Virus record (IMG/VR): IMGVR_UViG_2818991472_000001
Location: 64,001-128,000 of that record
Strand: one strand, 5' to 3'
DNA: 64,000 nt
Source of the DNA: a virus
Taxonomy: Duplodnaviria > Caudoviricetes
Shown: in pieces, positions 45,584 to 64,000 of the stretch
Layout: every line of letters begins with the position of its first letter
Position numbering within the stretch: position 1 is the first letter of the stretch
The notes under the pieces: model-generated
What the model was told of the DNA's origin: nothing
The model's input: the letters and a program-made list of their open reading frames with translations, nothing else
The model's database searches: none
Position numbers and translations under genes: made by a program

Positions 45584-46678
45584 GTGACCGCCACCGAGAT
45601 CGTCGACGCCGAGCTGGTCGACGAGCAGCCGCCCGAGGCTCCGCCGCTGCGCGGGACCTCCCTCGTCGTCGCCGACGGCCGGGCTGGAACGCGCCCGGGT
45701 CTGTCCGACGCGGCCCGGCGCCGCCTGGAGCAGTCCACCCCGGAGGAGACGCGCCGCGCCTACCAGCGCGAGTGGAACCGGTTCTTCGCCTGGTGCTGGA
45801 AGAACGCCGTCCGGCCGCTGCCGTGCACCGACGACGACCTGTCCAACTGGGTGGCCGAGCGGTGTGATAGCAGCGACGGCATCTCCGCGATCCGGCAGGG
45901 CATCGGCGCCGTGGTGATGGCGCACGAGACCCGCTACGGAGTCGGCAAGGGGCCCAAGACGAAGGAGAGTTGGCGCATCCTCTCCTCCTACAAGCGCGAG
46001 CGGTTCGACGCCGGGCACCGCGCCGACCAGGCCGCCACCTTCAACGCCGACCAGCTGCGCGAGATGCTGCTCACCATCCCGAACGACCACCCGGCCGGGG
46101 TCCGCGACCGGGCCCTGCTGTGCACCATGGTGGCGTCCATGAACCGGCGCAAAGCCTGGAACTCCCTGGACATCGAAGACGTGACCGAGGACGAGCTGGA
46201 CCCCGAGTCGGCCGACCAGGAGCTGCTGGCCGACCTGCGGGCGTTCGTCGGCCGTTCCAAGACCGACCAGGCCGCCCGGGGGCGCACGGTCGTGATCCCG
46301 CCCGGCGAGCACGAGCTGTCGGACCCGGTGGGGAACCTGCAGGCGTGGCTGTGCGAGATGGGCGTCCAGGGCGTCACCACCGGCCCGCTGTGGCGGCCTT
46401 TCAGCCGGGGCGGGCGCATCCTCGACCGGCGCCTGAACACCGACCACGCCCGCCTCCTGGTCCGCGACGCCGCTGCCCGCGCTGGGCTCAAGGCCCCGCA
46501 CGGGCGCACGTTCAAGGCCCACTCCACCCGGGCCTCCGCCGTCCGCATCGCCCGCAAGGCTGGGAAGACCTGGTCGTCGATCGAGGAGCAGGGCGGCTGG
46601 GTGCCCGGCTCCACGGCTGCCAAGGGATACGACCGGCCGGAGGAGGAGGAGAACGCGATGCGCGGAGCGGGCCTGTGA
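45584..46678 (+). CDS. Cre-like tyrosine recombinase
   Basis: T.RAY...W..F..WC core-binding domain; RDRALL...RR; RSKTDQ..G; HSTR; QGGW...S....Y. Confidence 0.9.
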   Translation: MTATEIVDAELVDEQPPEAPPLRGTSLVVADGRAGTRPGLSDAARRRLEQSTPEETRRAYQREWNRFFAWCWKNAVRPLPCTDDDLSNWVAERCDSSDGISAIRQGIGAVVMAHETRYGVGKGPKTKESWRILSSYKRERFDAGHRADQAATFNADQLREMLLTIPNDHPAGVRDRALLCTMVASMNRRKAWNSLDIEDVTEDELDPESADQELLADLRAFVGRSKTDQAARGRTVVIPPGEHELSDPVGNLQAWLCEMGVQGVTTGPLWRPFSRGGRILDRRLNTDHARLLVRDAAARAGLKAPHGRTFKAHSTRASAVRIARKAGKTWSSIEEQGGWVPGSTAAKGYDRPEEEENAMRGAGL

Positions 46679-47170: not shown

Positions 47171-47647
47171 TCACCGGTTGGTGGGGAGGACGAGGTTGAC
47201 CCACTCCTGGGCGTTGCCGGGCTCGAACTGGCTCCAGTCCTTCCCCGGGGCGGGCGTCCACCCGGCCACCTGCTCGTAGCCGGAGTGGCGGCTGGGGAGG
47301 ACCATGTAGCCGTGCTCGATGAGCCGGTGCCCGGCGGAGGCCGGGCGGAAGTCGTCCCAGTCGTAGGTCAGGTGCACGAGGTCGGCTCCGCCCTTGGGGT
47401 CGAGGACGCGGAGGGTGAACGGCCCGGTGGTGTCGGCGCTGCAGACGGCGGTCAGCGCGACGGCCCGCTCCCGGGCCTGGATCGCGGCGATCCGCTCCGG
47501 CGACCCGGTCGGCATCGCGGCGATCTCTTCGTCGGAGAGCAGCTCTTCGGCGGGCTCGGCGGGCAGGAGGGCGGTGGTGAACTTGGCCCCGGATTGGGCG
47601 GCTTGGCGGGCCCGGCGGCTGGCGGTCGACTGGTGCTTCGGCGACAC
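47171..47647 (-). CDS. hypothetical protein
   Basis: AAGGAG before GTG (VSPKH); STAS.RAR...GAKFT.AL N-terminus. Confidence 0.6.
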   Translation of the reverse strand: MSPKHQSTASRRARQAAQSGAKFTTALLPAEPAEELLSDEEIAAMPTGSPERIAAIQARERAVALTAVCSADTTGPFTLRVLDPKGGADLVHLTYDWDDFRPASAGHRLIEHGYMVLPSRHSGYEQVAGWTPAPGKDWSQFEPGNAQEWVNLVLPTNR

Positions 47648-47911
47648 GGTGCGCTCCTTGACGCGGCGGACCCCACACCTCCGCCGGATCGGATGCACGT
47701 CGGCACGATTCCAGTGGACGCATTCGCTCTGCACGGGCCCCGGGAGACCTTCACCGAAGCGGTCGGCGATGTGGGCGCCGACCACGGCTCACGGCGTGCG
47801 TGGCTTGCCGCGTGGCGACAGTGTAGCGGTGCCGTCACTGACTGTCTACCACTTCCGGGCGCCACTGTGCCCCGGGCCCTGCTGTTCAGGGTCCGGGGCA
47901 CGGGCTGGCCG

Positions 47912-48193
47912 TTAGTCCTGGGGCGCTGGGGTCGCCCAGGCCGGGGTCGAGGACTGCGGGTCAAGGTCGAACTCGCCGTCGCGGGCGCCGAGGACGAAGG
48001 CCCTCCACTCGTTGGGCGTGTAGGTGAGGGTCGGGCCGTCCGGGTTGCGGCCGTCCCGCATGACGATGTAGCCCTCGACGAAGGCGATCTGGATGATCCC
48101 CTCGGGGTCAGCGGAGATCCATTCGGCCCCGGTGAGGTCCAGGACGGGCTTCCCGTTGGACGGCAGGTCGGGTCCAGCGCTTTCGTCGGTCAT
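47912..48193 (-). CDS. DUF397 / BldB-like protein
   Basis: LDLTGAEW...IQIAFVEGYIVMRD...PDGPTL.YTP.EW.AFVLGARDGEFDL. Confidence 0.85.
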   Translation of the reverse strand: MTDESAGPDLPSNGKPVLDLTGAEWISADPEGIIQIAFVEGYIVMRDGRNPDGPTLTYTPNEWRAFVLGARDGEFDLDPQSSTPAWATPAPQD

Positions 48194-48279
48194 GGGGTGG
48201 GTGGGTGCCCTTCTGGTTGCGGTTCGTGGATCAGCGTACCGCTGGGAGCCGACGCCGGTGGGCGGGTTGGACGAGCTGG

Positions 48280-49230
48280 TCAGCGGGGGCTGGCGGTAGC
48301 GGCCACGGCGTCCCAGAAGTCGTTCATCCGGAAGTGGAAGAGGCCCATGCCGTGGTCGGTCCAGCTCCCGATCGGCTTGGTGATGATCTCGACGCCCTCC
48401 AGGGTCTCGGGGATGTAGCCGTTGCCCCAGCCGAAGTCGATGCGGGGGCGGCGGATGCCGTCGGGGTTGCCCTGGTCGGTGCGGATCAGGCTGGCGGTGC
48501 CCTGCAGCTCCTGGCCGAGGTGCTTGTGGGCGTGCAGGGCGAGGTCGGTGAACCCGGCCCGGGTCATGACGTCCCAGGGGCCGGTGTCGTGGCGGCCGTC
48601 GGCGGTGGTGCGGTTGGCCCGGAACGGCAGGTCGGTCACCACGTCCCAGTCCGGCAGGGTGGCGCGGTCGGCTTCGTCGCCGCTGTAGGAGTTCTGGTCG
48701 CCGAACCACAGGCAGGGGTAGGTGGTCTGGACGCGCTCGCCGAAGCGGTCGTCCGGGTCCTTGGGCCGCTGCTCGTTCTTGCCCCACTTGACCATCATGA
48801 GGGCCTCGCGGCGGCGCCACTCGGCGTCGTTCGAGCACAGGTGGTAGGAGGCGAGGTTGAGTTCGGGGCTGGCCTCGGTCCCGGCCCGGACGGTCTTGAT
48901 CTGGCAGGCCGGGTGCCACCAGCCGGTCTCCTGCGGGTAGTCGGCGACCACGCGCAGCAGCTGCTCGTTGACGAAGATCCCGGGGGCGTTGGGGCTCTCC
49001 CGGGTGCTGGAGGCGGCGATGTAGCCGGTCATGCCGAGGGCGTGCCCGGCGGCGAAGAGCAGGCGCTTGCCGTTGGCGCGGGAGTGGGTCAGCTCCTGCC
49101 GGGCGATGGCGGCGATGCGGTACTTCCGCGTGAGCATGGCCAGGTAGGCGTGGGCCTCGCGCCAGTGCGCGGAGTTCTCGCCGCCGAAGTCGTGCTCACC
49201 GTTGAGGTTCACGAACGTGATCAAGGACAA
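48280..49230 (-). CDS. endonuclease/exonuclease/phosphatase (EEP) family protein
   Basis: FVNL, RQE, SYHL, GDQNS, RIDF, TDH catalytic motifs. Confidence 0.85.
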   Translation of the reverse strand: MSLITFVNLNGEHDFGGENSAHWREAHAYLAMLTRKYRIAAIARQELTHSRANGKRLLFAAGHALGMTGYIAASSTRESPNAPGIFVNEQLLRVVADYPQETGWWHPACQIKTVRAGTEASPELNLASYHLCSNDAEWRRREALMMVKWGKNEQRPKDPDDRFGERVQTTYPCLWFGDQNSYSGDEADRATLPDWDVVTDLPFRANRTTADGRHDTGPWDVMTRAGFTDLALHAHKHLGQELQGTASLIRTDQGNPDGIRRPRIDFGWGNGYIPETLEGVEIITKPIGSWTDHGMGLFHFRMNDFWDAVAATASPR

Positions 49231-49566
49231 GGTCAGGCCCCTCTTGGAGGTGAATCCCGGTGTGGTGGCCCTGTCCCGGCCGAACAGCTGAAGGTGATTT
49301 TCTGACCGATCAACCAGCTACTGTCATGGCTCGGCCGGGGCAGGGAGTCTCGGGTTCGTCGGAGGCCCGGGGGTTTCCGGCGCCTCGGGCCTCCGACAGG
49401 CGGGTGGGGGGAACCGCCTTGGTCCGCACGCGAGACCTACCGGGGAGCTGGGGTCTCAAGCGGTGCGGGCCGCCCCGTGCGGCAACCTGCGCGGGGCGTT
49501 CGTGGGTGGTGTGGGTGCCCCTTCCCGGCTGGGGCTGGTACTGCTACTACCGGGCCGGTCCGGCGG

Positions 49567-49890
49567 CTACTGGATGGCGCGGGCTCGTGCGGCGACCCCT
49601 TCCAGGTGCTCCTGGAAGATCTTGGGTGCGTCGGGGCCCGCGAGGGTGTACAGCGCGACCATCCCGGTGAGGATGGTGTCGCCGATCTCCTTCTTGACGT
49701 CCTCCCACGTGTGGGTGATGCCCTTGCGGGGGTTTTGACCGAGGACTCCGCTGACGGCCTCGTGGACCTCGCCCACCTCCTCCCCGATCTTCATGATGCG
49801 GAGGAGGCGTTCCGTCTCGGGCGGCAGGGTGCTCTTGCCGTCGAGCCAGGCGACGAGATCGCCGATGTGGTCCCAGGTCTGCTGTTCCAT
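49567..49890 (-). CDS. MazG-like nucleotide pyrophosphohydrolase
   Basis: KIGEEVGEV.EA..G..GQNPRKG...EIGD. Confidence 0.9.
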   Translation of the reverse strand: MEQQTWDHIGDLVAWLDGKSTLPPETERLLRIMKIGEEVGEVHEAVSGVLGQNPRKGITHTWEDVKKEIGDTILTGMVALYTLAGPDAPKIFQEHLEGVAARARAIQ

Positions 49891-49924
49891 GCGTTGCGTC
49901 CGCTTCGGGTCGGGGCGCCGTCGC

Positions 49925-50767
49925 TCAGAACAGGGTGGTCTCCGGTTCGGGCTCCGGCGTGCTGGTCGGGTCGGAGACCGTGAGGTGCTGGTCCCCGGTC
50001 ACGTCCACGCGCAGGGTCAGGCCCGAGTGGTCGGTGAGGTTTTTCTCGGTGCGGGGCTCGTGGACGTACGCACAGGAGTGTACGAGGCCGAGCAGGGGGG
50101 TGGAGACGAATGCGTGGTCGTAGCGGTAGCCGTCGTTGGTCCGTCCCACCCAGGAGTACTCCTGGGCGCCGGGGTGCACGTGCCGGAAGGCGTCGTGGTA
50201 GCCGGTCTTGCCGAACCAGCGGTAGTAGTCGTACTCGAAGGGGCGGAAGATCGGGTAGCGGGGGCGGTGGTCGGGTTCCAGGATGTTGAGGTCGCCCATC
50301 ACGATCCTGGGGGTGCCGGTGCCCTCGGGGGTGCGGTCCTGGCACTCGGCGATGAAGCGGGCCTTGCGCTCGGTCTTGGCGGCGGTGGCGTCCCTGGAGG
50401 GGACGTAGAGGCCGAGGATCTCCAGCGGGCCGTCGGTGGTGTGCACGGCGGTGGAGACGGCCCGGTAGGGCAGGTAGTCGAGCGTGACGGGCTGGTGCGC
50501 GGCGAGCCGGAGCCGGGAGACGATCATGACGCCGCGCTCGCCCTTGTCGGGAACGGGGTAGGCCACCTCGTAGCCTGCGCTCCGGAAGCGGTCGGCCAGG
50601 TAGGCGCAGCCGGGTCCGGGGGTGGTCTCGGTGAGGACGAAGACGTCCTCGGGGCGCTGGGCCAGCCAGGCGAGCTGGCGCTGTGCACGCTCCAGCGCCG
50701 GGCCGCCGATGTTGAAGGTGAGAAAGCTCAGGCCGGGTCGGGCCGGTGTCGCTGCCTCAGTTGCCAC
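49925..50767 (-). CDS. exodeoxyribonuclease III-like EEP protein
   Basis: LTFN, VLTE, GLYVP, GDLN, DAFR, YSW, RYDH, TDHS. Confidence 0.9.
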   Translation of the reverse strand: MATEAATPARPGLSFLTFNIGGPALERAQRQLAWLAQRPEDVFVLTETTPGPGCAYLADRFRSAGYEVAYPVPDKGERGVMIVSRLRLAAHQPVTLDYLPYRAVSTAVHTTDGPLEILGLYVPSRDATAAKTERKARFIAECQDRTPEGTGTPRIVMGDLNILEPDHRPRYPIFRPFEYDYYRWFGKTGYHDAFRHVHPGAQEYSWVGRTNDGYRYDHAFVSTPLLGLVHSCAYVHEPRTEKNLTDHSGLTLRVDVTGDQHLTVSDPTSTPEPEPETTLF

Positions 50768-51386
50768 TGGTTCCCCTCCGCAGGGTGCCGATCCTGGAGA
50801 CGATGATGTCGGCGACCCGCTCAGGGCTGCGGTTGGTGCAGTCGATGATCAGGGTGGGGTAGCCGACCTTTTCCAGGAAGGTAGCGGCTTCCTCATAGAG
50901 GGCGGCTTCCTTACGGCTGCTTCCGGGCATCTTCTCGAAGCGGCTGTGGGTGCCCCGGGCGGTCAGCCGGGCGTGGATGACCTCGGGGTCGGCGGTGAGC
51001 ACGACGGTCAGGTCCGGGGTGATGGCGTGCTGGTTGATGGCCCAGATCGTCGTGGGGTCGATGCCGTCGAGCCGCTGCAGCACCAGGGAGGAGCCCACGT
51101 AGCGGTCGCACAGGACGGTGTCGCCGCGTTCGAGGGCGGGGGTGATCTCGGTGGCGATGTGGTGGTAACGGTCGGCGGCGACGAGGCAGGCCAGCGACAT
51201 GCCGGTGTAGGTCTCGGTGCCGTGCCGGGCGATCTCGCCGAGGTTGGCCCGGGAGGGTTCGGTGGTGGCGTGGACTGCCGTTCCGGCTGTGGTCAGGAGG
51301 TGGCCGACGGCGGCGACGGTGGTGGACTTGCCGACGCCGCCGGGGCCGTCGAAGGCGACAAACAGGCCGCGCTCGGTGTCGCTCAC
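50757..51386 (-). CDS. tmk: thymidylate (dTMP) kinase-like protein
   Basis: FDGPGGVGKST P-loop, EPS, ADR, CDRY..SS, PDL; GTGA coupling to the rSAM gene. Confidence 0.9.
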   Translation of the reverse strand: MSDTERGLFVAFDGPGGVGKSTTVAAVGHLLTTAGTAVHATTEPSRANLGEIARHGTETYTGMSLACLVAADRYHHIATEITPALERGDTVLCDRYVGSSLVLQRLDGIDPTTIWAINQHAITPDLTVVLTADPEVIHARLTARGTHSRFEKMPGSSRKEAALYEEAATFLEKVGYPTLIIDCTNRSPERVADIIVSRIGTLRRGTSGN

Positions 51387-52501
51387 GAGACGGCCACCAC
51401 GGGCAGCAGGGCGCGCTTGTTCGGGGCGACGGGGCACATCTCGGCGTCGAGGGCGCCGATGCGCTCCCCGGCGGCGACCACGGCGGCCGGGCATCCCTTG
51501 CCGCAGCCGTCTGCCATCGAGCAGCTGCCGCAGGTGGGGTTGGCTCCGACGGTGTACCGCTCGTGGAAGTTGTAGGCGTCCAGGCGGTCGGCGATGTCGG
51601 TGTCGGTGAAGATGTTGCCGACGATGAACTCGGTGTCGGCGTGCTGGGAATTCGGGGTCCGGGCGGCGAAGACGAGGTAGGGGCAGACGGTGACCTCGCC
51701 CGGGGCGAAGACGTAGATGATCGTCCCGGCCTCGCAGTTCGCGAGGGGTTTGGTGTCGTTGGGGAAGCGGATGTGGACCAGGTCGAGCTGGTCGCTGGCG
51801 AACGGGGAGGTGAGGTCGTGGATGTGCCGCATGTGGTCGTCCGACCGGGCGAGCTTGTTCTTGCTCTTGACGCCGCGCCCCATGCTGGAGAGCGGGTTCA
51901 TCAGGACGTAGGAGGCGCCCTGCTCGCTGGCGAAGGCGCACAGCTGGGCGTACTCCTCGTCCTCGGCAAGGTTGTTCGGGGTGCAGAGCAGGCCCTGCAG
52001 GAGCCCGGCCTGGGCCAGCCGCTTCACCGTCTCCACGGTGGTGTAGAACGACTCGCGGTCGCCCCGGAACTTGCCGTGGGAGTCGGCGGCGAAGCCGTCC
52101 AGGCTGACGTTCACGTGGATGTCGCCCATCTTGGCCAGGGCCGTGATGTGGTCGTCCGTGATCAGGGTGGCGTTGGTGCACAGTCCCACGCCCATGCCCG
52201 CGTCGCGGAAGGCGGCGGTGACGGCGAGGAAGTCGGGGTGCAGGAACGGCTCTCCGCCGGTGAGGGTCACCCGGGTGACCCGGGCCGCCTTCAGCTGGGG
52301 GATGACCTTGGTCCGGATGTCCTCCAGCGGCATCGTCACGCCGGTCTTGAGGGCGCTGACGAAGCAGTGGGCGCAGCCGAGGTTGCAGGGCTCGTTGATT
52401 TGGACGAGCGCCTTGCGGTAGGGCTCCACGACGGAGGTCCGGAAGTAGCAGGACACGGCCTGCTCGTCCGTCATGATCCGGCGTGCTGTCTTCTCGCTCA
52501 T
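51383..52501 (-). CDS. radical SAM protein with SPASM domain
   Basis: CNLGCAHC, TGGEP, TNA, VSLDG; C-terminal CEAG...CPY...CGSC....CGKGCP...C. Confidence 0.9.
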   Translation of the reverse strand: MSEKTARRIMTDEQAVSCYFRTSVVEPYRKALVQINEPCNLGCAHCFVSALKTGVTMPLEDIRTKVIPQLKAARVTRVTLTGGEPFLHPDFLAVTAAFRDAGMGVGLCTNATLITDDHITALAKMGDIHVNVSLDGFAADSHGKFRGDRESFYTTVETVKRLAQAGLLQGLLCTPNNLAEDEEYAQLCAFASEQGASYVLMNPLSSMGRGVKSKNKLARSDDHMRHIHDLTSPFASDQLDLVHIRFPNDTKPLANCEAGTIIYVFAPGEVTVCPYLVFAARTPNSQHADTEFIVGNIFTDTDIADRLDAYNFHERYTVGANPTCGSCSMADGCGKGCPAAVVAAGERIGALDAEMCPVAPNKRALLPVVAVS

Positions 52502-52736
52502 GGGTGTCCCCCATCAGGCCGGAGGCACTGCTGCGCCCCGTGGTGGCGGGGCGTCTCGGTGCTTGGGCCGTGCGTCGAGGTGGTCAGCGGGGACCGGGCC
52601 CGTCTGGCGCCCGGTTGCTTGCGGTGACCACTTCATCACTGGATCAACCATCCTGACAAGAAGGCGAGTTGAATAAATGTCAGTTACTTACGACTGGCAT
52701 GTGCTGCTGGCATGTTTCCGCAGCTCGCCGGACAAG

Positions 52737-52779
52737 TTAGTGAACTGGGTTGCGCATACTCAATCGAGTGCACTACTGT
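52737..52779 (+). promoter_or_regulatory. repeated promoter/operator element, copy 10 (plus orientation)
   Basis: TTAGTGAAC...TTGCGC-N18-TACTGT with GTGCACTAC. Confidence 0.85.
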
Positions 52780-52817
52780 CGTCCATGTCGCCAACCACCA
52801 CGAACGGGAAGCAGGCC

Positions 52818-53582
52818 ATGTCCAAGACTCCGCAGCTCGTCGGCATCACCACCCCCGTCAAGATCACCCTCACGATCGACGACTGGGAGGGCACCTACGG
52901 CACCGAGCGCAACAAGGCCGAGATCACCCAGCAGCTCGCCTCCCTCACCGTGGAGACCATGCTGAGCACCAACCTCCGCACCGAGCTGTGCGCCCTGATC
53001 GGGCAGACCGGCCACATCAGGACCGACGTGCTCCCCCCGAGCAACACCCTCGAAGCCCAGTTCGACATCGCCACCATCGTGGACACCACGATCTGGGAGT
53101 CCACCTACGGCTCCGACGAAGATGCCCAGCAGATCGCCGACGACGTCGCCAACCGCGTCCAGGAGTACGCCGCCGAGGCCCTCAAGCAGCGCGGCATCAC
53201 CGCCCAGGTCGAGCTGCGAGCCACCCCCACCGTCATCGACGCCACCGGCGACTACACCACCCTCTACCTGGTCTTCGCGCCGCGCGAGAACCCCTTCCTG
53301 GCCACCACCACCGGCGGCCTGCAGAACTTCGCCGCCCGCCTCGACGACGACGCCTGGCTGCGCCCCCTGGACTCCCAGATCGGCGAGTTCGTCGACTACT
53401 GGAACCGCCGGGAGCCGGAGGCGGCGCTGTGGGCCGTCACCACGGAGACCGAGAAGCTGCTGCCCGCGTCCGGCACCGAGCCCAACCTTCACGGCCGCAC
53501 CCCGGTGATCTTCCGGCGCGACCAGATCAAGCCCCTGCTCGCCGTCCTCGCCTCCCCCCAGAACCAGAACCTGGGAAACTGA
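52818..53582 (+). CDS. hypothetical protein with internal duplication (alternative leaderless start 52786)
   Basis: WEGTYGT / WESTYGS repeat; first gene after promoter copy 10. Confidence 0.7.
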   Translation: MSKTPQLVGITTPVKITLTIDDWEGTYGTERNKAEITQQLASLTVETMLSTNLRTELCALIGQTGHIRTDVLPPSNTLEAQFDIATIVDTTIWESTYGSDEDAQQIADDVANRVQEYAAEALKQRGITAQVELRATPTVIDATGDYTTLYLVFAPRENPFLATTTGGLQNFAARLDDDAWLRPLDSQIGEFVDYWNRREPEAALWAVTTETEKLLPASGTEPNLHGRTPVIFRRDQIKPLLAVLASPQNQNLGN

Positions 53583-53610
53583 CCCGTCCTCACCGACACC
53601 GGGAGACGCC

Positions 53611-54018
53611 GTGCACCAGCTCCACCCCCGCGAGCACCCGTGGGGTGACATCCGCCTCGACCACAACGGCGAGGCGACGTTCCTGACCGCCGAGCGCTCC
53701 ACCGACCCGGACTGCCTCTTCGTCCACCTCAAGGTCGCCGACTGCCCGCCGGACCACCAGCTCCTCGACAAGGAGGAGCAGGACGCCGGAGCGGTGCTGT
53801 TCCACATCACCGTCAGCATCCGGCTCCCCCGCGCGGACACGATCGTCCTGGCGCAGTACGAGGGCGGCCCGATCGTTCCCCGCGACATGGCAGCGTTCGA
53901 GTCCGCCAAGTACATGCGCGACGAGATCAACAGGGCCGTCTTCACGGCCCGGTTCAACCTGCGGGCCCTGGCCGCCGTCGCCCACCACCATCCGGTCGCC
54001 GCCCAGGGCACCACCTGA
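53611..54018 (+). CDS. hypothetical protein
   Basis: GGGAG RBS. Confidence 0.65.
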   Translation: MHQLHPREHPWGDIRLDHNGEATFLTAERSTDPDCLFVHLKVADCPPDHQLLDKEEQDAGAVLFHITVSIRLPRADTIVLAQYEGGPIVPRDMAAFESAKYMRDEINRAVFTARFNLRALAAVAHHHPVAAQGTT

Positions 54019-54042
54019 CCACGTATCACCTGAAGGAGCGCC

Positions 54043-54462
54043 ATGAGCACCGAGACCAGCAGTGGCCCCACCGAGTGGCAGCAGAAGCGCCAGGAGGCGC
54101 TCGCCGAGCGCGGCCTGGCCGAGGTCGAGCAGTACTCGCGAGCCAGCGACCTCTTCTACCCCGACAGCATCCGCCCGGCCCGCCGGGGCCGGATCGAGAA
54201 CATCATCTCCCTGGGCCCGACCACCGGCGACACCTACATCGCCGAGCTGGTGGAGAAGTTCAACGGCGAGAACCGCACGTGGTTCGCGGTCGTCATCGAC
54301 GGCAAGAAGGACCCCCAGCGCATGTACACCGCCGACGCGGCCCTGCTGCACTACCTCAGCCGGAAGCACAACAATCCGGACGCCTCCACCGCCGCCTGGT
54401 ACGCCGCCCGCGTCCTGGGCATGCCCGACCTCGACCAGGACCCCGCTGCGCCCGCCTCCTGA
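54043..54462 (+). CDS. hypothetical protein
   Basis: AAGGAG RBS; followed by hairpin. Confidence 0.7.
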   Translation: MSTETSSGPTEWQQKRQEALAERGLAEVEQYSRASDLFYPDSIRPARRGRIENIISLGPTTGDTYIAELVEKFNGENRTWFAVVIDGKKDPQRMYTADAALLHYLSRKHNNPDASTAAWYAARVLGMPDLDQDPAAPAS

Positions 54463-54475
54463 CACACAACCTGCC

Positions 54476-54507
54476 CGGCCCCGTCGCTCTCCCGAGCGAC
54501 GGGGCCG
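54476..54507 (+). terminator. hairpin terminator
   Basis: cggccccgtcgctc-tccc-gagcgacggggccg. Confidence 0.7.
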
Positions 54508-55852: not shown

Positions 55853-56962
55853 TCAGTCGTTGCTGTCCTTGGGGAACGTCGAGGGCGCCGGGGTCGCGAA
55901 CGCTGCCCAGGGCTCCTCACCCTTCGCCCGCTTGCTCTCGGCGTAGGCGACGGCCTCGGAGAAGCTGCGCTGCCGGAGGTCCTTCTGGGCCTCGCGGTTC
56001 AGACGCTTGTACTTGGCGATGGCCTTCGCCTCCAGGCTGTCCCGCACCTCGGTGACCCCCTGCCCGCGCTTGGCGGCCAGGGCCACGACGAGGCGGTCCG
56101 CGAACTCGACGTCCTCCGCAAGGAGCCGAGCGCGATGCTCCGCCGGGAGGAAGTAGAACGCCAGGTCCGGCTCGGCGGCAAGGATGGCGGCGATGTGCGC
56201 CTCACGGAGGGACGTCACGAGGGCGTCGACGGCCTCGCTCTGGGCGGCGGCCTCGGTGTCGATCCAGTCCCCTCGGCCCTTGCCCTGCAGCCGGTTGCCC
56301 TCGGGGTCGGTGATCGCCTTCGCCGCCTTCGTCACCTTGGCGGCCTCGGCCGCCTTGGCCTTGGCAGCGCGGGCCTCGCTCGCTGCGATCTCGTCGGGCG
56401 TGAAGATCTTGGTGGGCCGCTTCCGAATGTCGACGGGGGCCGAGGGGTAGCACACGGTGCAGGCCCGCTCCCCCGCGTCCTCGACGACCTGCTGCTCCGT
56501 TCCGCCGGAGTAGTCGGTCAGCCAGGCGAACTGCGTGCTGGGGCGGCAGGTGGAGCAGTCCATGGTCTTGTGCACGTGGCCGTCGACGTTGGTGACGATG
56601 AAGGCCCGGGTCCAGCCGCCCCGGCGGGCGAACTCGGCATCGTAGGGGGCCTGCTCGGCCTCGATGGCGGCGATGGACTTCTCCGCGTCCTGCAGCCGCT
56701 GCAGGGCGTTGCGGGCGTCGCGTCCGATGTAGGTGGTGTCGGTGTCGGCGCGGTGCTGGGCGGCCTGCTGGGCGGCGTTGAAGTCCATGCCCCACACCTG
56801 GCGGCGGCCCTGGTAGTTGGACCGGTCACCGGCGGCGCGGTGGATGCTGTCCCGGAGGCTGGGCAGCTTGCTCTCGGCCTTGAAGAGCTGCGCGGCCAGC
56901 TGGGCGAGCTGCTTGTCGATGTCGGCGGGGGTGGCGGTGGTGAGGTCCTTGGCAGAGGTCAT
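55853..56962 (-). CDS. conserved actinophage-type protein, likely leaderless
   Basis: WTRAFIV...GHVH...CSTC...WL..YSG...AGERACTVCYPSAP motif. Confidence 0.75.
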   Translation of the reverse strand: MTSAKDLTTATPADIDKQLAQLAAQLFKAESKLPSLRDSIHRAAGDRSNYQGRRQVWGMDFNAAQQAAQHRADTDTTYIGRDARNALQRLQDAEKSIAAIEAEQAPYDAEFARRGGWTRAFIVTNVDGHVHKTMDCSTCRPSTQFAWLTDYSGGTEQQVVEDAGERACTVCYPSAPVDIRKRPTKIFTPDEIAASEARAAKAKAAEAAKVTKAAKAITDPEGNRLQGKGRGDWIDTEAAAQSEAVDALVTSLREAHIAAILAAEPDLAFYFLPAEHRARLLAEDVEFADRLVVALAAKRGQGVTEVRDSLEAKAIAKYKRLNREAQKDLRQRSFSEAVAYAESKRAKGEEPWAAFATPAPSTFPKDSND

Positions 56963-56968
56963 GGAATG

Positions 56969-56998
56969 AATATAGCAACCTAGATATCTAGGTTGCAA
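56969..56998 (-). promoter_or_regulatory. promoter with 22-bp palindromic operator
   Basis: TTGCAA-N18-TATATT, 6 nt before ATG; GCAACCTAGATATCTAGGTTGC at 56975-56996. Confidence 0.8.
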
Positions 56999-57023
56999 GA
57001 TAGGCGGGATAACTTGGTCGAGT

Positions 57024-57587
57024 TCAGAGGGGCGGGTACTGGCCGTACGCTCCCCAGGAGTCCTTGCCCGGGTTCAGAGTGTCGTTGACGCCGAGCTGTT
57101 GGCCGTAGGAAGCGCGGGCCCAGGCTTCGAGACGTGCCGCGTGGCCGTCGGGGCCGGGGATGTACGGGTGGTCGGGGACCGGGGTATCCCATTCGTCGGA
57201 CGGCGCCCCGGGCGGTGCGAACTGCACCACGAGGGCCGCAAGCAGGCCGCCGCCGCCCGCGACCAGGAGGACCGTCTTGAAGATGATCGGGTCCTGGCCG
57301 CGCAACAGAGCTGCAGCGAGCAGGCAGACGGCGGTCGCAGCCACCAGCCAGCCGAGGACCCAGGGGTGGAGGCCGGGGGCAGCACGGCGGACCGACCAGG
57401 TACCGGTGGCCGGGTCAAGGTGATGGACCTGCTGGCGGTACGGGCGCCGGGCCCGGCGGTACAGACGCAGCTGGCCGGTGGGGCTCAGGCCCTTGTAGGT
57501 CCAGTACTGGCCGTCCAGGTGGAGGTACCAGTGCTCGCCGGGGCGTACCGGCAGGTGGGCTATCGCCCTTGCCTCCTCATGAGTCAT
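57024..57587 (-). CDS. membrane protein
   Basis: two TM segments. Confidence 0.6.
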   Translation of the reverse strand: MTHEEARAIAHLPVRPGEHWYLHLDGQYWTYKGLSPTGQLRLYRRARRPYRQQVHHLDPATGTWSVRRAAPGLHPWVLGWLVAATAVCLLAAALLRGQDPIIFKTVLLVAGGGGLLAALVVQFAPPGAPSDEWDTPVPDHPYIPGPDGHAARLEAWARASYGQQLGVNDTLNPGKDSWGAYGQYPPL

Positions 57588-60781: not shown

Positions 60782-63700
60782 CTAGGTGTCAACGCTGTTC
60801 CTCGGAGCCGCTCCGAATGGAATCTTTGTCCACACCCTGCCTGTGGAAACAATTATGTCTGATGCCGTCCAGGAGACTTCCGGGAGTTTGGGCATGAATC
60901 GGAAGTGGTCGCCGACGTACGCGAGCGTCATATGCGGTGACCAGCCGTGTTCGCTCGGGGTTCGATAGCCGTGGCCGTTGAGGAATTTCTCCAGATCGGA
61001 GTGGAGGTGAGTTCCTCCGGGGATATCAGCCGAGCCCCAGAGAACATTCTGGCCGGGCTTGGTGAATGTCCCCACGCCTCCGATGCGGACGGTTACCGGG
61101 CGGTGTCGGCTGGCCCAGTTCCCGATCAGCTGCGGCAAGTCGGCGAGCTGCTGGCGGGTGTAGTGACCCGTCTTGCCGAGGTAGGCGAGGGTGACGTGGA
61201 GCTGGGCTGCTGGTTCTCCGCCGGGCAGGGCCAGCTGCTCGGCGATCTCCGGCGGCGGGACCAAGGCCACCATCATGCCGTCCTCGACTTCGGCGGCGGC
61301 CTGGCGGGCGATGCGGTCGGCCTCCTCGGGGGTGGCCTGCCGGAAGAACAGGGTGGCGGTCTTCGGCCTGAGCGAGGTGAGGTCGACGGTCTCGCTGGGG
61401 CCGTACTCGTCGTGGGTCATCACGCCGTCGTAGCCGTCGGCGGCGATGGCTTCGGACAGGGCGCGGCCGGACTTGCCGTCGTAGCGCGCGGACAGCTGGT
61501 GCTTCCAGTTCGACGGGTCGCGGTAGTCGCCGCCGAAGTGCATCCGCAGCGGCCGGTGGAAGGTGATCTGGCCGCCTTCGTAGCGCGGATCGTCGGCCAG
61601 GTGGGAGGGCAGCGCGCCCTGGGTGATGTATCGGCCGTGGGGTTCGAGGTCCTGGGCGAACTGGCTGCCGTGGTGCCCGGCGCCCTCGGTGTTGCGGAAG
61701 TAATCGAAGGTGACGGGGCGATCGTCGCCGGTGTCCTCGGTGTAGGGCTGGCGCGCGGCGGTGTGGTGCCCGGTGGTGAAGTCGTGATGGGTGAAGTCGG
61801 TGCGGAAGTCGCGGTTGTCGTCGGCCAGGTGCAGGGTCCAGGAGATCCCGGTGCGGTCGCTGGCCCGCTCGCGGCTGTGCCAGACGATCTGCGTGGCCGG
61901 GTGCGGCACAGCGGGGAGGTCCTCGGCGGCTTCGTGAGCGGCCCCGTGGGCGTAGTCGGGGTCGTCCTCCCATTCATGGGCGGCGGGAGCGACCTGCTTG
62001 AGCCGTTCGGCGCGTTCGGCCACCGGTTGGGCCGGATCGTGGACGAAGGCGTGGTCCTCGGGAGTGAGGTGGACGGCGGTCCCTGCGTACTGCTCGGCCC
62101 CGAGGTCGTTGGGGTCGTCACCGGGGTGGTGGATCTCGGGCTGGTGGATCTCGGGGCCGTGGTAGGCCCACTCGTTGATGTCGTTGCCGTCTGTGTGCAC
62201 GTGCTTGGCCGGGACGGTGGCCTTCAGCACCGGCCAGTCCGGGCCGGTGCCGTCCATGGCGTGGTTGCGCGCGTACTCGCCGGAGGTGGAGACCCAGTCG
62301 CCGGGGCTGATCCGGTCGACGCCGTGGGGCGCGGCCCGGTAGATCGTCACCGGCTCGTCCGGACGGCCGTGGGCGCGGTGGAGGGTGTGGAGGGACTCCT
62401 CGTGGGGCTCGCCGTAGCTGCCGTCGGCGACGTTCTCCTCGAAGCCGGGGTGGAAACCGGAAGCTCCGTTGGTGGGGTCGTGCAGGGGCGCGCTGTCCGG
62501 GCCTGGCGCTCGGTGCTGCATACGGTAGTCGTCGTCCACAGTCCCAGCTTGCCGTACTGGGAGGACAGCGGCGGCGGCGCGGGTGGGCGCGGCCTCGGCG
62601 GTCTGGTCCTTCTTCCAGTCGGTCAGGTCCTGCAGAGGGTGGCCCGGCGCGGCGTCCAGCGCCTTCCAGACGACATTGCGTTCGTCGTACAGGCCCGTTC
62701 CGTCGGGGCCGAAGGCGTCGTGGCGGTCTTGGTGCAGCTGGTCGTACAGGGCGGCGCCTGCGGCGGCCTGGTCGTCCTCGGGGAGGTGCTCGATCTGCTG
62801 GATCTGGTCGCGGAGGTCGTCGAGGCGGTCCCAGTCCTCTTCAGGGAGGTGGTGGGCGTCGAAGTCGTCGGGAACCTGCACGGGTTCGACGGCCCAGGTG
62901 TCCGTGGTGAGGTCGTAGGCGGCGTACGGCTTCAGGGTGCGGATGTCGAAGCTGTCGGGGTTGACGTAGAAGGTCGACTCCCACGGGCCGGTGGCGTGTC
63001 CGTCCGACTGCAGGCTCCGGTCGTCGTCGTCCAGGCCAGCACGCAGCTCTTCGTTGAGACGCTGGTCGATCTCCTGGTCCGTCAGGTGCGAGAGCGGTGG
63101 GGCGCTGCGGCGGGCCTCGTCGTAGTTGACGCCGATGAGGGTGTCGAGGTCGCCGTTGCCGTACCAGTGGCTGGCTTCGGAGCCGGTGAGGTAGACGCGG
63201 GCCCACCGGGGCCAGTCGGAGCCGTAGCGGGGCGTCCAGAAGTCGTCGAGGAGGTCGAGGAGTTGCTGGCGGATCTCTGGTCGCAGGTGGGTGCCGTCGA
63301 AGAGCCTGGGGTCGAGGCCGGATTTGCCTGGGCCGAAGAAGTGGCCGGTGGGCAGCCAGTCGTGGTGGTGCTGGTAGGGCTGGGTGTTGTCGGGGACGAT
63401 GGTGTTCTGGAAGGTGAGGCGGCGGATGGCCTGGTCATAGTCGTGCAGGCCGACGTAGCCGATGTGGATGCCGCCGTCGTCGGTGGGGCGGTGGACGACG
63501 CGGTGGCCTCGGCTGGCCTTGGTGCTGTTCCAACCCTTGAGGGGCTGGGAGAGGGCGTGGGTCTGCAGCCCGTCGTCGCCTCGGCGCAGGGCTTCGACGG
63601 TGTCGGCGATGCGGCGCTGGTCCTGGCGGTCGAGCTTGGCGAGGTCCTTATGGGCGCCGGGGTGGAAGGTGACCGGGCGGAGTTCGGCTACAGGCCCAGG

Positions 63701-64000
63701 TCCTGCTGCACCTTCTCCCAGGGGATCGGGGTCTCCCCCGAGTTGTCCCGTTCCAGGATCAGCCGCTCCAGCTCCGGGTGCAGACGTGTCGTGTCGTGGC
63801 TTGCCTCGGCCTGCAGTTCGTGACTGGTCATCATGGTCCCCCTTGGCAGCGGTGGTTGGTTCATCAGCATAGGTGCTGTCGCCTGGGGTAGTGCGGAAGA
63901 AGTCGGCGGCGGAGGCCATGGTCCTGCCCCGGGTGACGGTCTTGTCCCGGGTGTAGCCCTTCCACCATGCCTTCCCGGCGTCGGAGCGGTCGCCGTGCTC
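60782..64000 (-). CDS. polyvalent protein (5'-truncated): RelE-like, nucleotidyltransferase, two ART-like modules, 2H phosphoesterase
   Basis: frame is open past 63919 to the window edge (EHGDRSDAGKAWW...); VTFHPGAHKDL..LD...HRVV; LTGS...GDLD; IYRA...GDWV; GYDGV; HVTL and HMTL. Confidence 0.85.
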   Translation of the reverse strand, partial: EHGDRSDAGKAWWKGYTRDKTVTRGRTMASAADFFRTTPGDSTYADEPTTAAKGDHDDQSRTAGRGKPRHDTSAPGAGAADPGTGQLGGDPDPLGEGAAGPGPVAELRPVTFHPGAHKDLAKLDRQDQRRIADTVEALRRGDDGLQTHALSQPLKGWNSTKASRGHRVVHRPTDDGGIHIGYVGLHDYDQAIRRLTFQNTIVPDNTQPYQHHHDWLPTGHFFGPGKSGLDPRLFDGTHLRPEIRQQLLDLLDDFWTPRYGSDWPRWARVYLTGSEASHWYGNGDLDTLIGVNYDEARRSAPPLSHLTDQEIDQRLNEELRAGLDDDDRSLQSDGHATGPWESTFYVNPDSFDIRTLKPYAAYDLTTDTWAVEPVQVPDDFDAHHLPEEDWDRLDDLRDQIQQIEHLPEDDQAAAGAALYDQLHQDRHDAFGPDGTGLYDERNVVWKALDAAPGHPLQDLTDWKKDQTAEAAPTRAAAAVLPVRQAGTVDDDYRMQHRAPGPDSAPLHDPTNGASGFHPGFEENVADGSYGEPHEESLHTLHRAHGRPDEPVTIYRAAPHGVDRISPGDWVSTSGEYARNHAMDGTGPDWPVLKATVPAKHVHTDGNDINEWAYHGPEIHQPEIHHPGDDPNDLGAEQYAGTAVHLTPEDHAFVHDPAQPVAERAERLKQVAPAAHEWEDDPDYAHGAAHEAAEDLPAVPHPATQIVWHSRERASDRTGISWTLHLADDNRDFRTDFTHHDFTTGHHTAARQPYTEDTGDDRPVTFDYFRNTEGAGHHGSQFAQDLEPHGRYITQGALPSHLADDPRYEGGQITFHRPLRMHFGGDYRDPSNWKHQLSARYDGKSGRALSEAIAADGYDGVMTHDEYGPSETVDLTSLRPKTATLFFRQATPEEADRIARQAAAEVEDGMMVALVPPPEIAEQLALPGGEPAAQLHVTLAYLGKTGHYTRQQLADLPQLIGNWASRHRPVTVRIGGVGTFTKPGQNVLWGSADIPGGTHLHSDLEKFLNGHGYRTPSEHGWSPHMTLAYVGDHFRFMPKLPEVSWTASDIIVSTGRVWTKIPFGAAPRNSVDT
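63688..63834 (-). CDS. antitoxin-like 48-aa protein overprinted inside the polyvalent gene
   Basis: AAGGGGG RBS; GC3-rich codons in this frame; C-terminal IPWEKVQQDLGL* typical of antitoxins preceding RelE/ParE. Confidence 0.6.
   Translation of the reverse strand: MMTSHELQAEASHDTTRLHPELERLILERDNSGETPIPWEKVQQDLGL

What the first reader, a model, noticed from the sequence alone, without database searches (positions are those of the whole stretch)
49567..52501. Radical SAM-SPASM + dTMP kinase + ExoIII-like + MazG operon: candidate modified-nucleotide system
Seen in sequence: four co-oriented genes, the first three overlapping or coupled. The rSAM lacks an N-terminal RRE extension and I saw no precursor peptide. 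A second EEP gene follows at 48280-49230. Established: prokaryotic viperins are rSAM enzymes often encoded next to nucleotide kinases and make chain-terminating ddhNTPs, but they lack SPASM; MazG enzymes hydrolyse non-canonical NTPs; ExoIII-type enzymes remove 3' blocks and AP sites. Inference: the rSAM makes an unusual (deoxy)nucleotide, the kinase activates it, and MazG/ExoIII supply pool control or self-immunity. This could be an antiviral or competition system, or a DNA-modification pathway. I know of no description of this combination.
Basis: partly seen in the sequence, partly recalled or inferred. Interest (0 to 1): 0.82.

Follow-up and report, generated by a model that had tools for sequence, protein, structure and literature searches.

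The report
Radical-SAM nucleotide-analogue cassette on a phage
Four tightly packed genes (a radical enzyme, a thymidylate-type kinase, an exonuclease-III-type DNA nuclease and a small nucleotide pyrophosphatase) form an unnamed, unstudied cassette that recurs in hundreds of actinomycete genomes, here as cargo of a large phage-like element, and most likely makes an unusual DNA building block while protecting the cell from it.

Summary
On the minus strand lie a SPASM radical SAM enzyme (51386-52501), a Tmk-family kinase (50760-51386), an Xth/APE1-type nuclease (49928-50767) and a MazG-like pyrophosphohydrolase (49570-49890). The first three are translationally coupled.

The rSAM-kinase-nuclease triad is found in every one of 79 informative related loci, down to 33% rSAM identity, always with different flanks. 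The fourth slot is filled by unrelated triphosphate hydrolases: MazG-like, NUDIX or CYTH, and HD in a distant variant. I found no RRE domain and no conserved peptide gene.

The cassette is a rare accessory:
- 0 of 166 other species in its own genus;
- 6 of 400 Streptomycetaceae;
- 28 of 301 Pseudonocardiaceae.

Here it sits on a 155-kb contig that carries tail-sheath, terminase and DNA-polymerase genes.

My best reading, which is inference: the cassette makes a thymidine-type nucleotide or nucleoside analogue and protects the cell in two layers, by pool hydrolysis and by DNA 3'-end/AP repair. The closest precedents are thmABC (4'-thiothymidine) and pVip with its kinase. It is a member of neither family. 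No function has been tested.

The second EEP gene (48283-49230) is real but is not part of the cassette.

The scan has met the same module before on other DNA (e1-1000797, e1-2804404, e1-2945700).

The parts
51383..52501 (-). Radical SAM/SPASM enzyme, 372 aa. It has no RRE domain and belongs to an unnamed family.
   Evidence: PF04055 at 4e-21. No NCBIfam model reaches its cut-off; the best is MftC at 101 bits against 265. It has CX3CX2C, a 7-Cys SPASM motif and an invariant N-terminal C18. The AF2 model has pLDDT 91.5. The nearest folds are SuiB/SkfB (Z about 27), BlsE/PqqE/anSME (about 23), viperin (about 21) and AbmM (15.8).
50757..51386 (-). Thymidylate-kinase-family kinase, 209 aa. Its GTG start overlaps the rSAM stop (GTGA).
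   Evidence: PF02223 at 8.5e-29; TIGR00041 at 106 bits, above its cut-off of 83. The P-loop, DRY motif and LID arginines are conserved. The sugar-gating Tyr of S. aureus TMK (SSLAYQ) is Leu (SSLVLQ) in at least 90% of 79 orthologues. The host has its own Tmk on contig C1.
49925..50767 (-). Xth/APE1-type (exonuclease III-like) EEP nuclease, 280 aa. It overlaps the kinase gene by 11 nt.
   Evidence: PF03372 at 1.5e-13; xth TIGR00633 at 69 bits, below its cut-off of 99. The catalytic residues N19, E47, Y121, D159, N161, D217, D246 and H247 and the YSW...R.D signature are conserved. The AF2 model has pLDDT 94. The top PDB neighbours are E. coli ExoIII 1ako, Neisseria NExo and APE1.
49567..49890 (-). 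Small MazG-like (all-alpha) NTP pyrophosphohydrolase, 107 aa.
   Evidence: Pfam MazG scores 17.6 bits, below its cut-off. The EExxE...ExxD motif is conserved. ESM Atlas places it in MazG-like clusters (0.95; TM 0.95). The same slot holds NUDIX or CYTH in other clades.
52502..52676 (-). Upstream intergenic region, presumed to hold the promoter and leader of the operon. This is inferred only.
   Evidence: It is a 175-bp gap before a divergent gene. There is no sigma-70 consensus hit, no Rfam hit and no conserved small ORF.
48280..49230 (-). Adjacent second EEP-fold gene, 316 aa. It is a neighbour and not part of the conserved cassette.
   Evidence: No Pfam hit. EEP fold by ESM Atlas. No BLASTP similarity to the cassette EEP. 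Absent from 80 related loci.

Best explanation
This is a self-contained, horizontally mobile operon. In this genome it is cargo of a roughly 155-kb myovirus-like phage or phage-plasmid contig. I read it as a pathway that makes a non-canonical, thymidine-type (deoxy)nucleotide or nucleoside analogue and keeps the producing cell safe from it.

Proposed steps (all inferred, none shown):
1. The SPASM radical SAM enzyme carries out the radical modification on a phosphorylated nucleoside, probably on the sugar or at C5.
2. The dedicated Tmk-family kinase feeds the substrate or phosphorylates the product. Its nucleoside pocket has lost the sugar-gating tyrosine.
3. The NTP pyrophosphohydrolase destroys or recycles the toxic triphosphate form. 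It is MazG-like here and NUDIX, CYTH or HD elsewhere. This matches the role of ThmC in the thmABC 4'-thiothymidine cluster.
4. The Xth/APE1-type nuclease removes the analogue, or the 3' blocks and abasic sites it causes, from the cell's own DNA.

The analogue would be used in conflict, against competing bacteria and/or superinfecting phages.

What is shown: the gene identities, the coupling between genes, the conservation of the cassette, the replacement of the hydrolase by unrelated folds, and the accessory, mobile distribution. The chemistry, the substrate and the biological role are inferred.

My confidence in the general claim, that the cassette makes or handles a non-canonical nucleotide, is about 0.75. 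My confidence in the specific claim, a toxic analogue plus two-layer self-protection, is about 0.4.
For: Conservation of the core:
- The rSAM-Tmk-EEP triad is present in 79 of 79 informative genome loci, taken from at least 543 matching species.
- It persists in metagenomic variants at 33-52% rSAM identity: L095, L099 and L101.
- Flanking genes differ completely between loci.

The hydrolase slot:
- It holds NUDIX in 43 loci, MazG-like in 17 plus the window, CYTH in 11, and nothing detectable in 5.
- Distant variants carry an HD/HD_assoc protein and large HAD phosphatases.
- The rSAM tree clades track the hydrolase type.

The kinase:
- It is a second, divergent Tmk besides the host's own.
- It has a conserved Tyr-to-Leu change at the sugar-gating position.

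The nuclease:
- It has all ExoIII catalytic residues.
- Its nearest solved structures are ExoIII, NExo and APE1.

Not a peptide maturase: there is no RRE domain and no peptide gene.

Distribution: it is a rare, patchy accessory gene set with some decayed copies. It occurs on a 336-kb Streptomyces plasmid and here on a contig with tail-sheath, terminase, UvsX-like and DNA-polymerase genes.

Precedent: thmABC (rSAM + kinase + NTPase) makes 4'-thiothymidine. ThmC alone confers self-resistance, and the three genes travel together with variable flanks (PMC12691670).
Against: - No product, substrate or phenotype is known.
- The cassette has no exporter.
- A kinase that pushes an analogue towards the triphosphate while a pyrophosphatase destroys it looks futile, unless the kinase acts before the rSAM step.
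- The rSAM fold is generic SPASM and gives no substrate clue.
- Homology to ThmA, ThmB and ThmC could not be tested.
- In Pseudonocardiaceae the cassette sits next to a divergent LysR-type regulator in ordinary chromosomal surroundings. That would also fit a metabolic or repair role.
- Five loci show no hydrolase gene nearby.
Confidence: 0.4

Rival explanations
1. pVip-like intracellular antiviral system. On phage infection the rSAM converts a nucleotide into a chain-terminating analogue and the kinase supplies or activates it. The hydrolase and nuclease limit collateral damage to the host. On the phage-like contig it would act as a superinfection-exclusion cargo gene.
For: - The pairing of an rSAM with a Tmk-family kinase echoes pVip with its kinase and viperin with CMPK2. 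The kinase has weak PADLOC hits to VakA (1.5e-7) and PDC-M51B (1e-12).
- The distribution is accessory, patchy and mobile.
- Some loci lie next to genes for a Lit-like peptidase U49 and DUF4365, type I R-M, Cas proteins or a GT4-conflict protein.
- Here it is carried by a phage-like element.
Against: - It is not a viperin. NF038283 scores 52.7 bits against a cut-off of 180, and only the N-terminal core matches.
- It carries a SPASM domain.
- Known pVips need no immunity genes, yet this cassette almost always has two.
- Most neighbourhoods are not defence islands.
- LysR-type regulation in Pseudonocardiaceae is unusual for defence systems.
Confidence: 0.2
2. Nucleotide-pool route to modified DNA, following the logic of phage T4's gp42, gp1, gp56 and den genes. 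The hydrolase turns a canonical dNTP into the dNMP, the rSAM modifies that dNMP, and the special kinase re-phosphorylates it for incorporation. The nuclease attacks unmodified DNA or trims it.
For: - The four activities (modifying enzyme, dedicated kinase, dNTP pyrophosphatase, nuclease) mirror phage base-replacement modules. This comparison rests on established knowledge of T4, SPO1 and S-2L and is not tested here.
- In this genome the cassette lies on a 155-kb phage-like contig that encodes its own DNA polymerase.
- The kinase pocket is altered.
Against: - Nearly all other copies are chromosomal, with no phage genes within 7 kb on either side.
- The rSAM has no match in 50,697 cultured phage genomes.
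- The nuclease is a repair-type Xth enzyme and not a base-specific endonuclease.
- Genome-wide base replacement in free-living actinomycetes is unlikely.
Confidence: 0.12
3. DNA or nucleotide repair and sanitation operon. The rSAM would reverse a radical-repairable lesion, as spore photoproduct lyase does, or repair a damaged thymidylate. Xth, a MutT-like hydrolase and Tmk would complete excision, pool cleaning and salvage.
For: - The nuclease is a bona fide Xth/APE1-type enzyme.
- NUDIX- and MazG-type pool sanitisers are present.
- A LysR-type regulator lies next to the cassette in 36 or more loci.
- LigD genes lie nearby in two loci.
- The rSAM has an invariant extra cysteine, C18, and a nearly invariant one, C108, that could donate a hydrogen atom.
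Against: - The distribution is rare and patchy (1.5-9% of species), with decayed copies. This is not expected for a repair function.
- The cassette is carried on a plasmid and on a phage-like element.
- The SPASM architecture is unlike SPL.
- The kinase pocket differs from that of housekeeping Tmk.
Confidence: 0.1
4. Peptide (RiPP) or cofactor maturase whose nucleotide-enzyme neighbours are coincidental.
For: The best sequence and fold matches are SPASM peptide maturases: MftC, SkfB, SuiB and PqqE.
Against: - There is no RRE domain and no conserved small ORF.
- The association with Tmk and Xth is invariant across 33-80% rSAM identity, and the genes overlap.
- BlsE and viperin, which act on nucleosides or nucleotides, are nearly as close in fold.
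Confidence: 0.03

Closest known systems
thmABC 4'-thiothymidine gene cluster of Photorhabdus asymbiotica (PMC12691670)
   Same: - It is a minimal cluster of an rSAM, a nucleoside/nucleotide kinase and a nucleoside triphosphatase.
- The genes always travel together, with different flanks in each species.
- It has no exporter.
- The NTPase alone gives self-resistance to a DNA-incorporated thymidine analogue.
   Different: - ThmB is described as an AbmG-like nucleoside kinase, not a Tmk-family kinase.
- thmABC has no Xth-type nuclease.
- It occurs in Enterobacterales and Vibrio, not actinomycetes.
- Sequence relatedness of ThmA, ThmB and ThmC to the window's proteins could not be tested here.
- The chemistry of the present rSAM is unknown.
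Prokaryotic viperins (pVips) with associated kinases; vertebrate viperin with CMPK2
   Same: An rSAM acts on a nucleotide and is encoded next to a Tmk-family or nucleotide kinase. The gene set is accessory and mobile.
   Different: - The window's rSAM fails the viperin model (52.7 bits against 180).
- It carries a two-cluster SPASM domain that viperins lack.
- pVip loci lack the nuclease and NTP-hydrolase partners.
Phage nucleotide-pool replacement modules (T4 gp42/gp1/gp56/denB; S-2L PurZ/MazZ/DatZ)
   Same: They combine a nucleotide-modifying enzyme, a dedicated dNMP kinase, a dNTP pyrophosphatase (MazG-like in S-2L) and a nuclease.
   Different: - The modifying enzyme there is a thymidylate-synthase or PurA homologue, not an rSAM.
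- Those modules are strictly phage-borne.
- This cassette is mostly chromosomal and is not found in cultured phages.
Albomycin thiofuranose pathway (AbmM rSAM + AbmG kinase)
   Same: An rSAM and a kinase remodel the sugar of a pyrimidine nucleotide.
   Different: AbmM is a distant structural neighbour (Z 15.8, against about 27 for the top hits). It sits in a large siderophore-nucleoside gene cluster.

Membership tests
SPASM-domain radical SAM enzymes | A CX3CX2C radical SAM cluster motif plus the C-terminal 7-Cys SPASM motif (CX9-15GX4C ... CX2CX5CX3C ... C). | tested here: met
   C39/C43/C46 are present. C256-X11-G268-X4-C273, C324-X2-C327-X5-C333-X3-C337 and C356 are conserved in close relatives. 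The fold neighbours are SuiB, SkfB, PqqE and anSME.
RiPP-maturing SPASM enzymes (sactipeptide/ranthipeptide/mycofactocin type) | An N-terminal RRE/PqqD-like peptide-recognition domain and an adjacent precursor peptide gene. | tested here: not met
   The rSAM core starts at about residue 30. SkfB, AlbA and StsB align only from their residues 96-115. No conserved small ORF was found in 82 loci. All curated models score far below their cut-offs.
Viperin / pVip | The sequence passes the viperin family model (NF038283, cut-off 180 bits). | tested here: not met
   It scores 52.7 bits, covering only residues 35-161, the generic rSAM core. The PADLOC pVip hits are N-terminal only.
Viperin / pVip | A single-cluster enzyme with the viperin C-terminal NTP-binding extension and no auxiliary clusters. 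| tested here: not met
   A full SPASM motif is present.
Viperin / pVip | Makes 3'-deoxy-3',4'-didehydro-NTPs. | not testable with these tools
   This needs enzymology and LC-MS.
thmABC-type nucleoside-analogue cluster | An rSAM, a kinase and an NTP hydrolase that co-occur as a unit with variable flanks. | tested here: met
   Searches show this for the present cassette. The criterion is taken from PMC12691670.
thmABC-type nucleoside-analogue cluster | Sequence homology to ThmA, ThmB and ThmC. | not tested
   The Thm sequences (GCF_000196475.1) could not be reached with the tools. Distant rSAM relatives are all unnamed metagenomic proteins.
dTMP kinase (TIGR00041 / PF02223) | The sequence passes the curated model and has the P-loop, DRY motif and LID. 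| tested here: met
   It scores 106.2 bits against a cut-off of 83.25. The motifs are conserved. The nucleoside pocket differs, however: Tyr is replaced by Leu in SSLVLQ and TREP becomes T-x-EP. A true dTMP substrate is therefore not assured.
Exonuclease III / APE1 (Xth) family | The sequence passes the curated xth model. | tested here: not met
   TIGR00633 scores 68.9 bits against a cut-off of 99.05. TIGR00195 scores 65 against 182.55.
Exonuclease III / APE1 (Xth) family | The catalytic N, E, Y, D-N, D and D-H residues, and an Xth/APE1 fold. | tested here: met
   The catalytic residues are invariant or nearly so. The YSW...R.D signature aligns to Xth. The top fold hits are 1ako ExoIII (TM 0.71/0.74), NExo and APE1.
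MazG / all-alpha NTP pyrophosphohydrolase | The sequence passes the Pfam MazG model. | tested here: not met
   It scores 17.6 bits against a cut-off of 22. The PDB sequence hits have E of 0.26-0.6.
MazG / all-alpha NTP pyrophosphohydrolase | The EExxE...ExxD metal-binding motif and a four-helix MazG-like fold. | tested here: met
   The motif is conserved in 18 orthologues. The ESM Atlas nearest clusters are MazG-like by features (0.95) and by structure (TM 0.91-0.95).

The most novel reading that the evidence does not exclude
The SPASM radical SAM enzyme defines a new, viperin-independent class of nucleotide-modifying enzymes. It would make a so far unknown DNA-directed pyrimidine nucleotide analogue, with a new sugar or C5 chemistry. 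The cassette would be a portable 'poison plus two antidotes' unit (pool hydrolase and 3'-end repair nuclease), exchanged among actinomycetes, plasmids and phages as a weapon against phages or competing bacteria.
Probability: 0.4. Interest if true: 0.85.

Novelty: new variant of a known kind. Interest (0 to 1): 0.72.

Why it matters
If the reading is right, several things follow.
- The cassette encodes an unknown natural nucleoside or nucleotide analogue. This class of compound supplies many antiviral and anticancer drugs.
- It would come from an unnamed radical SAM family present in at least 543 sequenced species.
- It would add a second example, after thmABC, of a minimal gene set of rSAM + kinase + NTPase.
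- It would introduce a DNA 3'-end repair nuclease as a dedicated self-resistance factor.

The replacement of the hydrolase by MazG-like, NUDIX, CYTH and HD enzymes is a clean case of non-orthologous displacement. It tells experimenters which activity to assay. The operon is only four genes and 3 kb, so it is directly testable by heterologous expression.

Tried and rejected
- **Expression data:** no RNA run holding this stretch is listed.
- **Fused forms of the rSAM:** none of 652 aa or more was found. This is weak evidence.
- **Cultured phage genomes:** no match to the rSAM at E 1e-10.
- **Rfam:** no hit in 47500-54500.
- **Promoter and terminator scans:** nothing above the level seen in shuffled sequence.
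- **Flanking direct or inverted repeats:** none that could mark an insertion.
- **PADLOC:** the rSAM, nuclease and MazG-like genes match no known defence system beyond the generic N-terminal rSAM similarity to pVip.
- **Neighbour survey (148 flanking proteins):** the families are heterogeneous. There are only a few defence hits: mad2 in 4, PDC-S07 in 3, type I MTase in 2, Cas in about 3. I did not compute a background rate, so I claim no enrichment.
- **AbmM-like enzyme:** rejected as the closest fold (Z 15.8).
- **L100 variant:** the divergent AP_endonuc_2 protein might be a second, non-homologous AP endonuclease. Its best PDB matches are an uncharacterised TIM-barrel protein (1.7e-4) and a partial Endo IV match (6.9e-4), so I make no claim. 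The 105-aa gene after that rSAM shows no BLASTP similarity to the MazG-like protein.
- **Literature:** searches for this gene combination found nothing.
- **Distant rSAM relatives:** they carry no organism names, so a link to Photorhabdus ThmA could not be checked.


Full report
**1. Observation**

The window is high-GC (about 70%). It corresponds to G000:C8:64001-128000, on a 155,259-bp contig of a 10.09-Mb genome.

- **rSAM (51386-52501).** It is a radical SAM protein (PF04055, 4e-21).
- **Kinase (50760-51386).** It belongs to the thymidylate kinase family (PF02223, 8.5e-29). TIGR00041 scores 106 bits, above its cut-off of 83.
- **EEP (49928-50767).** It is an endonuclease/exonuclease/phosphatase protein. 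Its only NCBIfam matches are exonuclease III models, at 69 bits against a cut-off of 99.
- **MazG-like (49570-49890).** It is a 107-aa protein with a sub-threshold MazG hit.

The rSAM stop and the kinase start overlap as GTGA. The kinase and nuclease genes overlap by 11 nt. The last gap is 34 nt.

The MazG assignment was weak by sequence. Two results support it. The EExxE...ExxD motif is conserved in 18 orthologues. The ESM Atlas places the protein among MazG-like clusters by features (0.95) and by structure (TM 0.95).

The 'second EEP' at 48283-49230 has no Pfam hit and no BLASTP similarity to the cassette nuclease. By the Atlas it has an EEP fold. It is absent from all 80 related genome loci, so it is a neighbour only.

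**2. The radical SAM enzyme**

It has the CX3CX2C motif (C39, C43, C46) and a canonical seven-cysteine SPASM motif. It also has an invariant N-terminal Cys18 (in SCYFR) and a nearly invariant Cys108.

No curated family claims it. The best NCBIfam hit is the mycofactocin maturase at 101 bits, against a cut-off of 265. The viperin model gives 52.7 bits against 180, over the generic core only.

It has no RRE domain: peptide maturases align to it only from their residues 96-115 onward.

A confident AF2 model (pLDDT 91.5) is a generic SPASM fold. Its structural neighbours are:
- SuiB and SkfB, Z about 27;
- BlsE, PqqE and anSME, Z about 23;
- viperins, Z about 21;
- AbmM, Z 15.8.

The fold therefore gives no substrate clue.

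An exhaustive profile search finds only 86 clusters (at 50% identity) with E of 1e-30 or better. Below those, scores fall to the level of generic SPASM proteins. The family is therefore distinct and compact.

**3. Conservation**

- More than 1,700 homologues exist, at 66-81% identity, in Streptomyces, Pseudonocardiaceae, Catenulispora and others.
- A scan of one genome per species found at least 543 species with a relative; I kept 80 loci.
- By tblastn, every locus with enough downstream sequence (79 of 79) has the kinase and the nuclease next to the rSAM, in the same order in all but one (L088, where the kinase is upstream).
- Flanking genes differ completely between genera. None of the window's own flanking genes recurs, and neither does its 45-aa upstream ORF.
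- Metagenomic relatives at 33-52% rSAM identity keep the triad: L095, L099 and L101. The 238-aa L099 protein matches the cassette nuclease at 1e-28.
- Other variants swap in related activities. L094 has a large HAD protein, the rSAM and CYTH, between IS elements. L096 has Tmk and HAD genes divergent from the rSAM, a weak EEP, and an HD/HD_assoc protein. A further variant has the rSAM, a 256-aa protein and a HAD.

**4. The fourth slot**

Among 76 loci with enough sequence, the gene after the nuclease is:
- a NUDIX hydrolase in 43, mostly Pseudonocardiaceae and Nocardia;
- the MazG-like protein in 17, plus the window (Streptomycetaceae and Catenulispora);
- a CYTH triphosphatase in 11 (Micromonosporaceae, Nocardiopsis and several metagenome-assembled genomes), sometimes in convergent orientation;
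- nothing detectable in 5.

A quick maximum-likelihood tree of the rSAM shows that its clades track the hydrolase type. The window's protein lies inside the Streptomyces MazG-type clade (quick search, midpoint root).

Three, or counting HD four, unrelated folds with the same general activity occupy one slot. This non-orthologous displacement is the strongest evidence that a nucleoside triphosphate is central to the system.

NUDIX-type loci also carry a divergently transcribed LysR-type regulator in 36 or more cases.

**5. The partner enzymes**

*Kinase.* It keeps the P-loop, the DRY motif and the LID arginines. Aligned to S. aureus TMK, the tyrosine that packs against the deoxyribose (SSLAYQ) is leucine (SSLVLQ) in at least 90% of 79 orthologues. 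The base-stacking Phe position is variable, and TREP has become T-x-EP. The arginine and glutamine that read the pyrimidine in TMKs are kept. The role I assign to these residues comes from established TMK structures and was not tested here. The host has its own Tmk and ThyX on contig C1, so the cassette kinase is an extra, specialised copy.

*Nuclease.* It conserves all the ExoIII/APE1 catalytic residues and the YSW...R.D signature. Its AF2 model (pLDDT 94) is closest to E. coli ExoIII, the Neisseria 3'-phosphatase/exonuclease NExo, and APE1. It therefore most likely acts on DNA 3' ends or abasic sites, and not on small phosphoesters.

**6. Distribution and carrier**

The rSAM was found in:
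- none of 166 other species of its own genus;
- 6 of 400 sampled Streptomycetaceae, some of them truncated or interrupted by a stop codon;
- 28 of 301 sampled Pseudonocardiaceae.

The last count includes three unpublished genomes (G718, G666, G709). Without them it is 25 of 298.

One copy lies on a 336-kb Streptomyces plasmid. No cultured phage carries it.

In this genome the carrier contig C8 has these genes:
- a tail sheath (phrog_2839, 2e-60);
- a large terminase (7e-11);
- a UvsX-like recombinase;
- a DnaE-type polymerase.

A neighbouring window gene has relatives in 311 actinophages. Most other window genes have no Pfam or PHROG match. The cassette here is therefore cargo of a large phage or phage-plasmid. 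First-stage notes of this scan had proposed that; I checked it only in part.

I surveyed 148 flanking proteins from the related loci. The families are heterogeneous: HTH regulators, extra NUDIX genes, LigD, and a few type I R-M, Cas and mad2 hits. There is no consistent defence island.

**7. Interpretation**

The evidence supports, at about 0.75, the general claim that this is a self-contained module that makes or handles a non-canonical nucleotide.

For the specific mechanism I commit, at about 0.4, to the following:
- The cassette produces a thymidine-type analogue by radical chemistry on a phosphorylated nucleoside.
- The kinase feeds the substrate or phosphorylates the product.
- The hydrolase keeps the toxic triphosphate low.
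- The Xth-type nuclease clears the analogue or its damage from DNA.

The closest precedent is thmABC of Photorhabdus, which has the following features (PMC12691670).
- It comprises an rSAM, a kinase and an NTPase.
- These three genes always travel together, with variable flanks.
- They make 4'-thiothymidine, which is incorporated into DNA.
- The NTPase alone confers self-resistance.

From my own knowledge, not checked here:
- Base-excision-repair enzymes serve as self-resistance factors in genotoxin gene clusters.
- E. coli ExoIII removes 3'-terminal nucleoside analogues.

Both fit the proposed nuclease role.

The presence of two protective genes argues for sustained production in a cell that must survive. 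That favours an antibiotic-like role over a classical pVip-like abortive response. The antiviral reading remains a serious rival (0.2).

The other rivals are:
- T4-like pool replacement leading to modified DNA (0.12). This is attractive here because the carrier is a phage with its own polymerase, but it is weakened by the chromosomal majority of copies.
- A repair or sanitation operon (0.1).
- A peptide maturase (0.03).

**8. Novelty**

The gene set is unnamed in Pfam, NCBIfam and PADLOC. I found no paper describing it. It follows the logic of known rSAM nucleotide-analogue systems (pVip with its kinase, and thmABC), but it fails their membership tests where those could be tested. It also adds a dedicated Xth-type nuclease and an interchangeable hydrolase. 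I therefore class it as a new variant of a known kind.

This scan has already met the same module in other genomes (notes e1-1000797, e1-2804404, e1-2945700). Note e1-2164464 gave me the lead to the thmABC paper.

Noticed in passing
G000:C8 (whole 155,259-bp contig); L097:867-2456, L098:343-2457, L098:8786-9925, L098:10821-11999: The contig that holds the window carries genes for a tail sheath (phrog_2839, 2e-60), a large terminase (phrog_2, 7e-11), a UvsX-like recombinase and a DnaE-type DNA polymerase. It looks like a large myovirus-type phage or phage-plasmid, assembled apart from the chromosome.
   Followed up: partly
window 48283-49230 (-); L093:6008-7153 (-): A second, divergent EEP-fold gene lies next to the cassette in the window. 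An unrelated second EEP gene (PF03372, 1.5e-11) lies divergently upstream of the rSAM in a Solirubrobacterales MAG. Extra EEP genes may therefore recur near the cassette.
   Followed up: partly
window 55856-57073 (-): This 406-aa protein of unknown function (phrog_15500 at 2e-50, phrog_2433 at 4e-40) has relatives in 311 actinophage genomes. They include large Rhodococcus, Mycobacterium, Gordonia and Streptomyces phages.
   Followed up: no
window 60785-64000 (-), runs off the window: A very long ORF (more than 1,072 aa) ends in a 2H/LigT-type phosphoesterase domain (PF13563 at 3e-13, PF02834 at 6e-7). This fits the polyvalent-protein note of the first stage.
   Followed up: no
window 1-40000: Ten large minus-strand ORFs (340-930 aa) have no Pfam hit, and nearly all have no PHROG hit. 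This stretch of the phage-like element is almost entirely unannotatable.
   Followed up: no
window 45584-46675 (+): A tyrosine-recombinase-like gene matches Phage_integrase only below the cut-off (24.1 bits against 27.1). It also has weak XerC/D similarity.
   Followed up: no
L056, L047, L088: Three contigs binned as Melainabacteria, Aeromicrobium and Candidatus Ryanbacteria carry actinomycete-type cassettes at 61-68% rSAM identity. The L047 rSAM is nearly identical to the Lentzea L057 rSAM in the tree (end branches 0 and 0.032). These are either binning errors or recent transfers.
   Followed up: no
ESM Atlas structural hit, row 4: A cluster of 268-aa Actinomycetota NUDIX proteins aligns to the whole MazG-like protein (TM 0.85 by query). 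This suggests that natural MazG-like-NUDIX fusions exist.
   Followed up: no
G268:C1:4692755-4693522 (+) and 4795219-4795986 (-): One Streptomycetaceae genome holds two identical truncated copies of the rSAM (residues 4-259, 80% identity). They lie in inverted orientation about 100 kb apart. This may be a large inverted duplication carrying a decayed cassette.
   Followed up: no
L101:2874-4337 and 7888-8778; L094:10654-11101: Some distant cassette variants lie next to genes for an HTH plus peptidase U49 (Lit-like) protein, a DUF4365 protein, or a GT4-conflict/trypsin/PNP protein. These are contexts typical of conflict systems.
   Followed up: no
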